A stretch of 59,892 nucleotides of DNA from the IMG/VR virus record IMGVR_UViG_3300021085_000033, positions 1 to 59,892 of that record; one strand, 5' to 3'. The stretch's first letter is position 1; every line of letters starts with the position of its first letter. The position numbers and the translations under genes are program-made. The notes under the pieces were generated by a model that saw nothing but the letters and a program-made list of their open reading frames with translations, searched no databases and had not been told where the DNA came from. Shown here in pieces: positions 57,314-59,158 of this stretch. This DNA comes from a virus. Its lineage: Duplodnaviria > Caudoviricetes.

Positions 57314-57450
57314 AATTAAATCAGTCTGATGAGGCTAGGTCATTCACCTAGCTGTACCTACGGGTACGACCCCTGAGATGGGGCGAAACCACGTGATACG
57401 GGAAGCGTATTGGCTACGGCACTTCGGTGCTTGGTCACTGATAACTAATT
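57314..57450 (+). ncRNA. Branched type I hammerhead ribozyme (HH2)
   Basis: Stem I ATCAGT/ACTGAT; CTGATGA-G...C-GAAA core; three hairpins inserted in stem II; stem III CCA/TGG enclosing two hairpins; GTC triplet (cut after 57436). Confidence 0.82.
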
Positions 57451-57458
57451 AAATGCTT

Positions 57459-57605
57459 ATGATACACGACAAAAGAATATGCGTGAAAACATCTAGCGCT
57501 GACCTACGTGAGATGACTAGCATACAGCTAGACAAGTTGTATGAAGACCTGAGAGTTTTGCAATTTCAGGCGCAGTACGAACTGCTATCAAGAGGGGGCG
57601 AATGA
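57459..57605 (+). CDS. Putative early hypothetical protein (48 aa)
   Basis: AATTAAATGCTTATG leader; MIHDKRICVK... Confidence 0.6.
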   Translation: MIHDKRICVKTSSADLREMTSIQLDKLYEDLRVLQFQAQYELLSRGGE

Positions 57606-57640
57606 CCCCTCGGTTACTGATAACTTAAATTAATTGCTTT

Positions 57641-58003
57641 ATGAACAAACAAGATTTTGCTCAGCTGTTGGAGATGCACGATTGGTACTACGAACGTAGC
57701 GAAGACCCAAAGGTCTACAAAAGAGGTAGTGAACAGCGTAAAATGATCTTCAAAGCAAAAGCACAGCTAGGTGAGGATGGAGAATACCTTTACCTGAAGT
57801 ATGCTAAGCGCTACGAAGAGAATACCAATAGACCGATAGGCGCTCCAAGGAAAGAGCGCGTGTTTAAGGACATTATGTGTAAGTCTAATGGTAAGCTAGG
57901 CGTACTGATAGACAAGAGCCCAAACGGGTTTCTAGAGATTAAGTTCAAGGATGAGTACCGAACCCAATATCTACACCCTGACAAAGTGTTTATGCTAGAC
58001 TAG
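57641..58003 (+). CDS. Putative early hypothetical protein
   Basis: LLEMHDWYYERSED...YKRG motif. Confidence 0.75.
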   Translation: MNKQDFAQLLEMHDWYYERSEDPKVYKRGSEQRKMIFKAKAQLGEDGEYLYLKYAKRYEENTNRPIGAPRKERVFKDIMCKSNGKLGVLIDKSPNGFLEIKFKDEYRTQYLHPDKVFMLD

Positions 58004-58038
58004 GTCTAGCGGTTACTGATAACTTAAATTAATGCTTT

Positions 58039-58245
58039 ATGATAAGTAGAATGGAAATCCTGAAGAACGGCTACGTAATGATAGCTGAGAAACTAGACAG
58101 CGAAGATTTACACGGCGCTATGGCTATGGCTAAGGGACTAGGACTTATAGACCTAGTCAATGAGATAGGCGAACTTATGTACTGCGCTGATGATGAGTAC
58201 GAGCCATTTAGAAAAGGTTTAATCAAACACCTGATAGAGGAATGA
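58039..58245 (+). CDS. Putative early hypothetical protein
   Basis: ORF with conserved leader. Confidence 0.7.
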   Translation: MISRMEILKNGYVMIAEKLDSEDLHGAMAMAKGLGLIDLVNEIGELMYCADDEYEPFRKGLIKHLIEE

Positions 58246-58388
58246 GAAAATACACGATTGAAAACTATTACGGCGGTGAAAGAGATGATGAACTGCTGTA
58301 CGCGGACAGCTACAAAGAGGCTAGAAAACTACAAGGTGGTGAGTTCTCTTTGATTATTAATAACGTTACTAAAGTTGTAAGAGAATGA
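58242..58388 (+). CDS. Putative early hypothetical protein (48 aa)
   Basis: ATGA-coupled on both sides. Confidence 0.6.
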   Translation: MRKYTIENYYGGERDDELLYADSYKEARKLQGGEFSLIINNVTKVVRE

Positions 58389-58654
58389 CAAGTAGAGAAA
58401 AGATGTTGGAAATACTCGGAAAGTACTTTCCAATCACCGGAACAACTGAAGACTTTGATGGCTCCGAGGGAGGCATATGGATTTGTGGTGAGTGTGACTA
58501 CACTACCCCCAAAGGTATTCCTTACTTTAACTATTACGCCCACAGCAAGTCTTACGAATTCGGTGTGCTGAATAGCTTAACAAAGATTACCGATAAGCAC
58601 GGGTGGGGATTCCAATGGTATGACCCCGGAACGATAATGGTGTACCCTGATTAG
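58385..58654 (+). CDS. Putative early hypothetical protein
   Basis: ORF; GWGFQWYDPGT. Confidence 0.75.
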   Translation: MTSREKMLEILGKYFPITGTTEDFDGSEGGIWICGECDYTTPKGIPYFNYYAHSKSYEFGVLNSLTKITDKHGWGFQWYDPGTIMVYPD

Positions 58655-58689
58655 GGTCACCGGTTACTGATATCTTAAAACACTTTATT

Positions 58690-58962
58690 ATGCCTAAGAA
58701 ACATAGAAACCTTAACGGAGACCTATGCTACACGTTTGCGTGGGAGCAGGGTGGTGGTAATCACGTATATGCCTACAGCAAGAAAGCCGCAATTAGATTA
58801 GCCAAGAAAGTTGGCGCTGGGACACACGATAGACACGGGAAAAAATACAAAAAGACATATCCTCTTTCAGTGTTGACCCCTCAAGAAGAATCATTCCGCT
58901 CAGTATATCTAGAAGAATTGATGGAGTTTGATCGGAACCTGTACCTAGCGTACAGCCTATAA
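58690..58962 (+). CDS. Putative early hypothetical protein
   Basis: ORF; GGGNHVYA. Confidence 0.7.
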   Translation: MPKKHRNLNGDLCYTFAWEQGGGNHVYAYSKKAAIRLAKKVGAGTHDRHGKKYKKTYPLSVLTPQEESFRSVYLEELMEFDRNLYLAYSL

Positions 58963-58967
58963 TATAA

Positions 58968-59096
58968 AGTCGGAGCATAAGCAGTCCCGGAGGTCTTCGG
59001 GATAGAAGAGTATTCTGCCAATTCAATTCAATTTAAGGTCAAGGTGTGCTCCTAGCCCTAGCGGGTAGTAACATACACCAAAGATTACTAAAGACT
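58968..59096 (+). ncRNA. Unclassified multibranch structured RNA candidate
   Basis: AGTC/GACT, GGAGCAT/GTGCTCC, GCAG/CTGC, TCCCGGAG/CTTCGGGA, GCCC/GGGT and AGTAA/TTACT stems. Confidence 0.55.
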
Positions 59097-59158
59097 GACA
59101 GCAAGGAAAGACTTGCGGTTACTGATATTTTTAATTAACTTGGCTTAAAACATTTAAT

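What the first reader, a model, noticed from the sequence alone, without database searches (positions are those of the whole stretch)
57320..59127. One hammerhead core with several matching distal substrate sites: possible trans or long-range cleavage
Seen: the HH2 binding arms (AUCAGU and GAAACC) recognise 5'-GG-UH-ACUGAU-3', and its own site is hairpin-UUGGUC^ACUGAUAAC. The sequence hairpin-GGUU^ACUGAUA recurs without a catalytic core at 57612, 58011, 58662 and 59117; GGTTACTGAT also occurs at 59832 (=71). GUU satisfies the NUH cleavage rule. The implied cuts fall 25, 24, 24 and 38 nt before the next ATG, close to the 22 nt for HH2 itself. HH2 lies right after its own promoter, so self-cleavage would release a ~165-nt RNA holding the core. 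Inference: HH2 may process downstream sites as a multi-target ribozyme, which I do not recall being described in phages. Caveat: stem III would be only ~3 bp in trans and must displace the cis strand. The sites could instead be decayed duplicates, recombination junctions or protein-binding sites.
Basis: partly seen in the sequence, partly recalled or inferred. Interest (0 to 1): 0.9.

Follow-up and report, generated by a model that had tools for sequence, protein, structure and literature searches.

The report
One hammerhead ribozyme, several coreless target sites
A marine phage carries one elaborate self-cutting hammerhead RNA at the head of a row of small early genes, and each later gene is preceded by a copy of only the ribozyme's target half, so one RNA enzyme may cut the long message at many places, which is not known for natural hammerheads.

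Summary
HH2 (57320-57442) is a real, conserved, elaborated type I hammerhead that Rfam misses. It occurs once in the window (own model, 151.9 bits). Four downstream junctions repeat only its substrate half: a hairpin, then GGUU^ACUGAU, then a leader and ATG.

About 60 related phage contigs show the same layout. Each has one HH2 at the head of 2-14 coreless cassettes, always downstream of it. In 42 distinct HH2 sequences the peripheral hairpins covary (15 of 32 pairs). The two substrate-binding helices never change, apart from one wobble-compatible A to G. Neighbouring cis-only hammerheads do covary in stem I.

Of 206 distinct distal cassettes, all keep GGU-H-ACUGAU by the way they were selected. 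N17 is U, C or A, and never G. The hairpin abuts GGU in 180 of them.

A more distant phage (terminase 47% identical) has the same layout with different arms and a different motif.

Cleavage of distal sites by HH2 is my best reading (about 0.5). It is unproven, because every match could also arise if HH2 only fits the first member of a cassette family that serves another factor.

The scan found this layout before on other DNA. My searches found no description of it in print.

The parts
57236..57267 (+). Possible internal promoter (TTAG-N20-TAGATTAG) that would start the RNA carrying HH2 at about 57272
   Evidence: Read. It has the same 20-nt spacing as TTTG-N20-TACATTTG at 55373-55404. TAGATTAG or TACATTAG is kept in 2 relatives. 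The consensus is recalled. The sigma-70 scan does not cover this promoter type. Inferred.
57278..57306 (+). Leader of the HH2 RNA: a hairpin at 57278-57293, then the conserved GUUCUUUGACA box (57296-57306, boxA-like)
Evidence: The hairpin is listed. The box, as CGUUCUUUGAC, CGUUCAUUGAC or ACGUUCUUUAC, is present upstream of the HH2 homologs wherever the printed stretch reaches that far.
57320..57410 (+). HH2 enzyme module. It comprises the stem I 5' arm AUCAGU (57320-25), the core CUGAUGA (57326-32), G10.1 (57333), hairpins a (57334-52), b (57354-67) and c (57370-83), C11.1-GAAA (57384-88), the stem III 5' strand ACCA (57388-91), and hairpin III-a (57396-57410).
   Evidence: In one search, 99.2% of cells are paired and there are compensatory changes in hairpins a, b, c and III-a. 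In one search the model scores 151.9 bits.
57411..57442 (+). HH2's own substrate module. It comprises the linker (57411-17), hairpin III-b (57418-31), U-GGU-C (57432-36), the cut at 57436^57437, and the stem I 3' strand ACUGAU (57437-42). The leader follows, with the ATG at 57459.
57592..57621 (+). Distal cassette 1: hairpin 57592-57611, GGUU 57612-15, predicted cut at 57615^57616, ACUGAU 57616-21. The ATG is at 57641.
   Evidence: D14/D15.
57994..58020 (+). Distal cassette 2: hairpin 57994-58010, GGUU 58011-14, predicted cut at 58014^58015, ACUGAU 58015-20. The ATG is at 58039.
58639..58671 (+). Distal cassette 3: hairpin 58639-58661, GGUU 58662-65, predicted cut at 58665^58666, ACUGAU 58666-71. 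The ATG is at 58690.
   Evidence: the hairpin appears in the fold.
59101..59126 (+). Distal cassette 4: hairpin 59101-59116, GGUU 59117-20, predicted cut at 59120^59121, ACUGAU 59121-26. The ATG is at 59159.

Best explanation
HH2 is a conserved, elaborated type I hammerhead built from two modules.
- The enzyme module is the 5' arm, the CUGAUGA core, a three-hairpin stem II domain, GAAACCA and hairpin III-a.
- The substrate module is hairpin III-b followed by GGUH^ACUGAU.
A single-stranded linker joins the two.

HH2 cuts its own site at 57436^57437. This releases a non-coding RNA of about 165 nt that keeps the enzyme module.

Each later junction of the early operon (57612, 58011, 58662, 59117) carries a copy of the substrate module only. 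The enzyme module pairs its AUCAGU arm with ACUGAU and its ACC with GGU. The cassette's own hairpin stacks on this 3-bp helix, as III-b does in cis. The enzyme then cuts after GGUU.

The result would be that the long early transcript is diced into short messages. Each would end in a protective hairpin and begin about 24-38 nt before its ATG.

Shown: the structure, its conservation, the one-to-many layout, and the pattern of constraint. Inferred: self-cleavage, from membership of the hammerhead class. Inferred and untested: cleavage at the distal sites.
For: 1. HH2 is real. In 42 distinct homologs, 99.2% of pair cells are standard pairs against 84.2% in shuffles, and 15 of 32 pairs have compensatory changes. 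The only core variation is at N7, which the class allows: CUGAUGA in 64 and CUGAAGA in 10 of 74 loci.

2. There is one core and many sites. The window has one HH2 and 4 coreless cassettes. Related contigs have up to 14 motif copies, including HH2's own site. No cassette lies upstream of HH2 in any of 74 loci; the only upstream hits, in 4 loci, have no cassette features (no hairpin or leader).

3. The recognition helices are frozen. Stem I has 0 of 6 pairs and stem III 0 of 4 pairs with compensatory change. The peripheral hairpins have 5 of 6, 5 of 6, 1 of 4 and 4 of 5. The cis-only small hammerheads of the same phages do covary in stem I: GUUAUA/UAUAAC, GUUACA/UGUAAC and GUUGCA/UGCAAC in 13 distinct sequences.

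4. Constraint at the distal sites starts sharply. Information content rises from 0.2-0.4 bit at -5 to 2.0 bits at GGU. N17, the one unpaired position, is the least constrained position inside the block. Among 206 distinct cassettes N17 is U in 189, C in 15, A in 2 and G in 0. The hairpin abuts GGU in 180 of 206.

5. Arm and distal sites vary together. ACCGAU at one distal site is seen only in 5 loci with the arm AUCGGU, while its orthologue in 2 loci with AUCAGU is ACUGAU. Where the arm extension holds AAGUU, distal positions +7 to +12 are AACUUA in 93 of 101 distinct cassettes. Where it does not, the figure is 38 of 105.

6. A more distant phage (terminase 47% identical) has one hammerhead with the arms AGUAAU(G/A) and ACG(U). 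It has 6-8 coreless hairpin plus (A)CGUC^UAUUACU cassettes before its early genes.

7. Other junctions of the same operon carry their own cis ribozymes: a small hammerhead and a pistol. So cutting at junctions is evidently what this operon does.

8. The distal hairpins lack U tracts and are not terminator-like. The late-gene hairpins do have U tracts (D16).

9. The cis product strand is a weak competitor. The ACC/GGU helix forms in 0 of 42 folds of the 5' product.
Against: - There are no cleavage data of any kind.
- Every sequence match between arm and distal sites follows automatically if HH2's own site is simply the first member of a cassette family kept for another purpose, with the arm tracking that site.
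- The co-variation rests on few events. The ACCGAU variant may be one or two events, and 58 other site instances in G-arm loci stay ACUGAU. The long-arm and short-arm classes share only 1 of 105 ORF groups, so phylogeny confounds the +9 contrast.
- Pairing-disrupting variants exist in cassette context (ACUAAU, ACUUAU, AAUGAU, ACUGAA, one context each), against two compatible kinds.
- Distal N17 is U in 92% of cassettes, although GUC is the better triplet by recalled kinetics. Own sites are C in 21 of 44.
- In this window binding would rest on only 6 + 3 bp. Co-folding energies for distal sites (-4.6 to -7.6 kcal/mol) are no better than for control junctions (-2.7 to -9.0).
- Two upstream junctions (long hairpin plus GGUGGUAUAAC) have no ribozyme and do not fit the hammerhead cleavage rule. 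So not every junction is ribozyme-served.
- The leader part AAYUUAAAUUAA is also conserved at junctions with other ribozymes. Its conservation therefore does not depend on HH2.
- No natural multi-target small ribozyme is known, so the prior is low.
Confidence: 0.5

Rival explanations
1. HH2 acts only in cis. The hairpin plus GGUUACUGAU cassettes are recognition sites for a protein, either a host or phage endoribonuclease or an RNA-binding regulator. This would work like the sequence-specific cutting of T4 early messages by RegB (recalled). HH2's arm merely fits the first copy.
For: - This reading explains the strong constraint on the block, including the preference for U at N17: 189 of 206 at distal sites against 23 of 44 at own sites.
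- It also explains the sharp 5' boundary of the conserved block and the frozen arms, without any new chemistry.
- Two upstream junctions with long hairpins and no ribozyme suggest that protein-based processing also occurs in this operon.
- Co-fold energies do not single out the distal sites.
Against: - If a protein cut all cassettes, the first one would not need an elaborate, strongly conserved ribozyme cutting at the equivalent position.
- The motif changed completely in the distant phage, together with the hammerhead arms. Under this reading three partners would have had to co-evolve instead of two.
- The arm-extension and +9 contrast and the ACCGAU/G-arm association are not predicted.
- I did not look for a candidate protein.
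Confidence: 0.25
2. After self-cleavage the freed HH2 arm pairs with the distal ACUGAU(AACUUA) leaders as an antisense regulator of translation or stability, without cutting them.
For: The arm and its extension are complementary to up to 12 nt of the leaders, about 20 nt before each ATG. The arms are frozen, as in RNA guides with many targets.
Against: This reading does not explain the invariant GGU, the abutting hairpin 5' of the paired stretch, or why the catalytic core and its domains are so well kept.
Confidence: 0.08
3. The cassettes are homology modules for shuffling small early genes between co-infecting phages, like the PeSL cassettes of T4-type phages, or they are decayed duplicates. 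They would have no RNA function of their own.
For: Related genomes carry different ORFs and ORF orders between identical motifs. RNA-library and DNA contigs of relatives diverge at cassette borders (table 7). PeSL cassettes are documented in PMC2839356 and PMC4122927, of which I saw only the search listing and the start of the abstracts.
Against: Some 206 distinct cassettes have fully diverged hairpins and leaders around an invariant 10-nt block with a razor-sharp 5' edge. That indicates selection on the block itself, and 10-17 nt is short for homologous exchange. Shuffling can be a consequence of any of the other readings.
Confidence: 0.07
4. The hairpin plus motif units are terminator-promoter pairs acting on DNA.
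For: They sit between a stop codon and the next start, all on the coding strand. In the distant phage, two cassettes follow true U-tract terminators.
Against: - None of the four hairpins is terminator-like, and promoter-like hits are at chance level (11 found, 11.7 expected).
- The motif does not fit the TTTG-N20-TAnnTTTG pattern seen at 55373-55404, and it lies too close to the ATG (read; consensus recalled).
- The motif is transcribed and used as stem I at HH2 itself.
Confidence: 0.03

Closest known systems
Clustered cis hammerheads flanking single genes in phages and prophages (Perreault et al. 2011, PMC3088659; passages read)
   Same: Type I hammerheads sit between small phage genes. The authors propose that long phage transcripts are processed into single-gene messages. 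A halovirus hammerhead cuts 13 nt before an early start codon.
   Different: In those cases every junction has its own complete ribozyme. Here one complete ribozyme is followed by 4 junctions (up to 14 motif copies in relatives, HH2's own site included) that hold only the substrate half.
Discontinuous (split) hammerhead in mammalian Clec2 3' UTRs (Martick et al. 2008; seen only as a reference and one sentence in PMC6765202, and in the listing of PMC2920678)
   Same: The enzyme and substrate strands of a natural hammerhead lie far apart on one transcript.
   Different: That case has one substrate per enzyme, in a eukaryotic mRNA. Here one enzyme would serve many substrates, and it also has a full cis site.
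Hammerheads with a weak stem III that act as dimers (avocado sunblotch viroid, newt satellite, Penelope-like elements; recalled, not looked up)
   Same: A 2-3 bp stem III is completed by an intermolecular or long-range partner.
   Different: Those pair two identical units. Here a single core would pair with coreless sites.
PeSL promoter-stem-loop cassettes of T4-type phages (PMC2839356, PMC4122927; listing and start of abstracts only)
   Same: Repeated hairpin-plus-motif units flank small variable early genes and mark shuffling points.
   Different: PeSLs pair a terminator with a sigma-70 promoter. Here the hairpins lack U tracts, no promoter consensus is present, and the motif equals a ribozyme's substrate.
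T4 RegB endoribonuclease and RNase III processing of T7 early RNA (recalled)
   Same: Early polycistronic phage RNA is cut at many repeated sites near translation starts.
   Different: Those use protein enzymes. Here the candidate enzyme is an RNA encoded at the head of the same operon.

Membership tests
Hammerhead ribozyme, type I | Conserved core CUGANGA ... GAAA in the right order around a three-way junction | tested here: met
   CUGAUGA lies at 57326-32 and GAAA at 57385-88. In 74 loci the core is CUGAUGA (64) or CUGAAGA (10), so only the free position N7 varies.
Hammerhead ribozyme, type I | Stems I, II and III supported by pairing and covariation; stem I open | tested here: met
   99.2% of cells are paired and 15 of 32 pairs are compensatory, all in the stem II and III domains. 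The stem I pairs and the three stem III pairs next to the core (15.1-15.3) are 100% paired but never covary; the fourth stem III pair (A15.4-U16.4) is unpaired in 7 of 42 sequences. Stems II and III are multibranched, which is unusual for the class.
Hammerhead ribozyme, type I | Cleavage triplet N-U-H (U at 16.1, no G at 17) | tested here: met
   The window has GUC. Of 44 distinct contexts of own sites, 23 are GUU and 21 are GUC.
Hammerhead ribozyme, type I | Match to an Rfam hammerhead model at gathering score | tested here: not met
   There is no Rfam match at 57310-57450, even at E up to 5. The large insertions in stems II and III probably explain this.
Hammerhead ribozyme, type I | Site-specific self-cleavage giving a 2',3'-cyclic phosphate and a 5'-OH | not testable with these tools
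   This needs transcription and cleavage assays.
Trans-acting, multi-substrate ribozyme (by function) | One catalytic RNA and several separate substrates that fit its binding arms | tested here: met
   The window has one HH2. Four coreless sites have GGU-U-ACUGAU. There is no conserved sequence upstream of -4 that could be a hidden core.
Trans-acting, multi-substrate ribozyme (by function) | Arms and substrates change together across lineages beyond what the cis site demands | tested here: inconclusive
   The patterns go in the predicted direction. They are few and confounded by phylogeny, and they are partly expected under a cis-only model.
Trans-acting, multi-substrate ribozyme (by function) | Core-dependent cleavage at the distal sites | not testable with these tools
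   Only assembled contigs of RNA libraries were available.
Intrinsic terminators (for the distal hairpins) | G+C-rich hairpin followed by a U tract | tested here: not met
   None of the four distal hairpins is listed. The scan found 4 sites elsewhere against 3.6 expected.
PeSL-type promoter-stem-loop cassettes | Stem-loop followed by an early promoter consensus | tested here: not met
   Sigma-70-like hits are at chance level. By eye there is no fit to the TTTG-N20-TAnnTTTG pattern found at 55373-55404.

The most novel reading that the evidence does not exclude
The ~165-nt RNA released by HH2 is a true multiple-turnover guide ribozyme. Its 5' end is set by a promoter, or in some relatives by another hammerhead about 100 nt upstream with no gene between them. 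Its 3' end is set by self-cleavage. Through the conserved boxA-like GUUCUUUGAC box just 5' of its binding arm, it stays with the antiterminated RNA polymerase and cuts each nascent hairpin-GGUH^ACUGAU cassette as it emerges. The arm and motif pair is reprogrammable, as the distant phage with AGUAAUG / (A)CGUC^UAUUACU would show.
Probability: 0.1. Interest if true: 0.95.

Novelty: new variant of a known kind. Interest (0 to 1): 0.8.

Why it matters
Small self-cleaving ribozymes are abundant in phages, but their roles are mostly unknown. All known natural hammerheads cut a single site, their own. A hammerhead that serves many sites on a transcript would be the first natural small ribozyme working as a multi-substrate enzyme. 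It would give a concrete function, dicing of early phage messages without any protein. It would also offer a naturally evolved design for trans-cleaving hammerheads: a 6-12 bp stem I, a 3-bp stem III stacked on a substrate hairpin, and large stabilising domains. The hypothesis can be tested directly with a few in vitro transcripts.

Tried and rejected
Rfam. No hammerhead model finds HH2, at gathering score or at E up to 5.

Named phage collection. A distant DNA search with 55000-59892 found nothing. The nearest named terminases are from Flavobacterium and Cellulophaga podophages, at 40-47% identity.

The 2707-aa ORF. It matched no solved structure and no PHROG family. I therefore could not say whether the phage brings its own RNA polymerase.

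Looser viral scans. CTGATGAG-N35-65-GCGAAACCAC gave 39 stretches, of which 9 are HH2 and the rest are chance hits in genes. The extra hit L080 is a chance hit.

Co-folding. I co-folded the 165-nt RNA with each distal site. For 57612 and 58011 the minimum-energy dimer does form the stem I and GGU pairings. However, the energy gains (-4.6 to -7.6 kcal/mol) overlap those of control junctions (-2.7 to -9.0), so this does not discriminate.

Sequencing runs.
- Only Logan contigs were on hand, and the RNA-library runs hold small shares (0.05-0.12).
- In one RNA library (X24), a 209-letter contig is laid from 57437, the first base after the HH2 cut, to 57642, with 3 letters unaligned. Another contig is laid from 59121, the first base after the predicted fourth distal cut, with 1 letter unaligned before it.
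- This is a single study. Contigs cannot show RNA ends, and strain variation at N17 or at cassette borders would break assemblies at the same places. I do not count it as evidence.
- The first contig reaches only 27 letters past the 57615^57616 site, which is under the 31 needed to call it bridging.

Contig ends. Ends of stored contigs showed no pattern at cleavage sites.

Orthologous cassettes. Comparison between long-arm and short-arm genomes was not possible, because only 1 of 105 ORF groups is shared.

The distant relative MW202828.1. It has no ribozyme hits. Its early junctions carry a repeated palindrome instead, so it gave no test.

The distant phage L147. The arm extension UUGG matches CCAA at 3 of its 6 distal sites but not its own site. 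I considered this as evidence for trans pairing and dropped it, because the relatives L148-L150 lack that extension and an alternative cis pairing exists.

HH1 as a multi-target ribozyme. The GGUGGUAUAAC junctions do not fit its arm together with an N-U-H site (read).

Literature. Three searches and passages of PMC3088659, PMC6765202 and PMC10085705 gave no natural one-to-many hammerhead.

Rows left out. 3 of 45 distinct HH2 sequences (L112, L135, L136, which have a long insertion in hairpin b) were left out of alignment A1. The cassette counts use only sites that match GGT[TCA]ACTGAT exactly and have an ATG within 45 nt, so invariance of these ten positions in those counts is by construction. 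One search lists the variants with 1-3 mismatches.
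Full report
WHAT THE WINDOW IS. The window is a complete phage genome of about 59.76 kb, assembled with an end overlap: bases 6-131 equal 59767-59892. It is an IMG/VR virus record. 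Its portal, terminase and virion proteins are podophage-like. The terminase is 40-47% identical to those of Flavobacterium and Cellulophaga phages. A row of small + strand ORFs runs from 55400 across the end of the window. Most are preceded by an A/U-rich leader ending in AAAUGCUUUAUG.

THE OBSERVATION.
- the arm AUCAGU at 57320-25;
- the core CUGAUGA at 57326-32;
- one G-C pair closing three hairpins;
- CGAAAC at 57384-89;
- a short stem III, ACCA/UGGU, enclosing two hairpins;
- the site GGUC^ACUGAU at 57433-42.

The stretch folds well: -49.6 kcal/mol, z = -3.5, and 0 of 200 shuffles are as stable. Rfam does not see it. Rfam does find a pistol ribozyme at 56363-56427 (54.9 bits) and a small type I hammerhead at 55599-55648 (29.7 bits, under the gathering score of 34).

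The motif GGTYACTGATA occurs exactly five times, all on the + strand and all within 1.7 kb from HH2 onward. With one mismatch there are 10 matches, against 2.37 expected. Each of the four distal copies follows a hairpin directly. The implied cuts lie 25, 24, 24 and 38 nt before the next ATG, and 22 nt for HH2 itself. The copy at 59832 (which is the same as 71) has no hairpin and no leader.

RELATIVES.
- A scan of viral contigs for the 18-nt motif found 26 stretches. In seven contigs the motif stands in cassette context: a G+C-rich hairpin of varying sequence, then the motif, then 10-13 variable bases, then ATG. Six of the seven hold more than one copy, up to about ten. The other stretches hold a single copy in a different, shared sequence context.
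- Each of five contigs tested holds the arm plus core exactly once, four as AUCAGU and one as AUCGGU. With three more scans, eight IMG/VR contigs carry an HH2 homolog.
- A metagenome scan used a pattern that does not include the arms. It returned 64 stretches, and 59 of them hold HH2, one of them twice.
- In every case the arm is AUCAGU or AUCGGU and the own site is GGU(U/C)^ACUGAU.
- In many relatives the own site is GGUU, which makes it identical to the repeated motif.
- All cassettes lie downstream of HH2 on the same strand.

HH2 IS A GENUINE, UNUSUAL HAMMERHEAD. I aligned 42 of the 45 distinct homologs. The three left out have a long insertion in hairpin b. On this alignment my hammerhead structure has 99.2% of cells paired, against 84.2% in shuffles and 32-37% when the partners are slid. 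Fifteen of 32 pairs show changes on both sides. The only core variation is at N7, which the class allows. A covariance model built from the alignment finds one copy in the window (151.9 bits). The next best match is the small hammerhead at 12.7 bits, and the distal sites score about 6 bits. There is therefore one core and several coreless sites.

HOW HH2 IS BUILT. The RNA falls into two modules.
- The enzyme module is the arm, the core, the stem II domain, GAAACCA and hairpin III-a.
- The substrate module is hairpin III-b, then (U)GGUH^ACUGAU.
They are joined by a single-stranded linker of 7 nt in the window and 13 nt in the L005 group. Every distal cassette is a copy of the substrate module. 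Among 206 distinct cassettes, all have a hairpin of at least 4 bp ending within 5 nt of GGU, and in 180 the hairpin abuts GGU. A distal cassette could therefore take the place of III-b and the own site with the same geometry. The 3-bp ACC/GGU helix would stack on the cassette hairpin. In seven HH2 sequences the cis stem III is itself only 3 bp (pair 84-141).

PATTERNS THAT BEAR ON DISTAL CLEAVAGE.
(a) The two recognition helices never covary, although every peripheral helix does. The small cis-only hammerheads of the same phages show compensatory change in stem I.
(b) Conservation at distal sites starts abruptly at GGU. Inside the ten-base block, N17 is the most variable position. It is U in 189 cassettes, C in 15, A in 2 and never G.
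(c) One orthologous distal site reads ACCGAU in five loci whose arm is AUCGGU, and ACUGAU in two loci whose arm is AUCAGU. ACCGAU is never seen with the A arm.
(d) In some loci the arm extension contains AAGUU, which pairs with AACUU at +7 to +11 to give a 6 + 6 bp stem I with a bulge. There the distal cassettes read AACUUA in 93 of 101 cases. In the other loci the figure is 38 of 105, and the main difference is C at +9.
One hammerhead (AGUAAUG-CUGACGA ... GAAACGUUGG) heads its early genes. Six coreless hairpin plus AACGUC^UAUUACU cassettes follow it. Two related contigs show the same layout with the arm AGUAAUA. The only variant in the paired part of those sites is C to U opposite G.
(f) The distal hairpins are not terminators, and the motif is not promoter-like.

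LIMITS. None of these results shows cleavage. Items (a), (b) and (e) are also expected if the cassette family is conserved for another factor and HH2 merely fits the first member. Items (c) and (d) rest on few evolutionary events. The two arm classes share almost no early genes, so common descent can mimic co-adaptation. Further points against the reading:
- Pairing-disrupting variants occur.
- Distal sites prefer GUU, while own sites are GUC in about half the cases.
- The leader after +6 is conserved at junctions served by other ribozymes too.
- In this window the arm offers only 6 + 3 bp, and co-fold energies are no better than for control junctions.
- RNA-library contigs that start next to two predicted cuts come from a single study and can be assembly effects, so I set them aside.

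VERDICT. Its elements are a conserved two-module hammerhead, a downstream array of copies of its substrate module, frozen recognition arms, and the same layout with other sequences in a distant relative.

The most economical mechanism is that the HH2 enzyme module cuts the distal cassettes, either long-range on the same transcript or after its own release. I give this about 0.5. The main rival is a protein that recognises the cassettes, with HH2 acting only in cis (0.25). Smaller rivals are antisense pairing without cleavage, shuffling modules, and terminator-promoter units.

COMPARISON WITH WHAT IS KNOWN. Perreault et al. 2011 (passages read) described several complete hammerheads flanking phage genes and proposed that they process transcripts. 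[quoted passage not shown] My three literature searches found no natural hammerhead with many coreless targets. This scan had already noted the same layout on other genomes. Those are unchecked AI notes and are not independent support.

Noticed in passing
window 56363-56427 and 55599-55648: A pistol ribozyme (54.9 bits) and a small type I hammerhead (29.7 bits, below the gathering score) each sit between two early ORFs and cut just 5' of the shared leader. Relatives carry the same two, plus a third small hammerhead type (GUUACG-CUGAUGA...GUC^CGUAAC).
   Followed up: partly
window about 55953-56003 and 56668-56717: Two junctions have a long imperfect hairpin (CACCUCGC...GGGGYUUUGGUGG) followed by UAUAAC and the leader. 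They match no Rfam family, do not fit the hammerhead cleavage rule, and are conserved in the closest relative. How they are processed is unknown.
   Followed up: no
window 59832-59842 (= 71-81): GGTTACTGATG lies in a non-coding stretch without a hairpin or leader. The surrounding sequence (GCCCTTRCGTTTGGAAGAGAT-GGTTACTGA...) is conserved in many relatives, with variants in the motif. It may be another target or a relic.
   Followed up: partly
window 55373-55404 and 57236-57267: TTTG-N20-TACATTTG stands before the first early ORF, and TTAG-N20-TAGATTAG before HH2. Both look like Bacteroidota-type promoters. The consensus is recalled and not covered by the scan tool.
   Followed up: no
window 57296-57306: GUUCUUUGACA, just 5' of the HH2 arm, is conserved upstream of the HH2 homologs wherever the printed stretch reaches that far and resembles the boxA antitermination element (recalled; also in note e1-6269271). 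I did not compare it with host rRNA leaders.
   Followed up: no
L075 (G001) about 4380-4660; also L031: In the L005/G001 lineage, a small hammerhead cuts about 100 nt upstream of HH2 with no ORF between them. The HH2 RNA would therefore be excised at both ends by ribozymes.
   Followed up: partly
L139 483 and 1650: One metagenome contig carries two HH2 copies of different subtypes 1.2 kb apart.
   Followed up: no
L085, L094, L112, L124, L125, L135, L138: One conserved cassette is followed not by a leader and ATG but by AGCUGAGAAGAARGGCUUUUGAUAYGCACUGCGUAUCGAUUGAUG..., a conserved non-coding stretch of unknown nature.
   Followed up: no
window 57612-57640 and the other cassettes: The motif plus leader reads GGU UAC UGA UAA CUU AAA UUA A.., with stop codons in all three frames before the next start. 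This could be a by-product of the A/U richness.
   Followed up: no
L146 (MW202828.1) 14540-19900: This distant relative has no ribozyme hits. The perfect palindrome GTGTCGTTAACGACAC is repeated before seven of its early ORFs, which looks like an operator or hairpin cassette of another kind.
   Followed up: no
window 58963-59100: A non-coding stretch of about 140 nt lies between an ORF end and the fourth cassette hairpin. It has no Rfam match, and another first-reader note also flags it.
   Followed up: no
window 36059-39504 and 40435-42904: Long series of diverged direct repeats lie inside the tail-fibre genes (D1-D7, D10, D12, D13).
   Followed up: no
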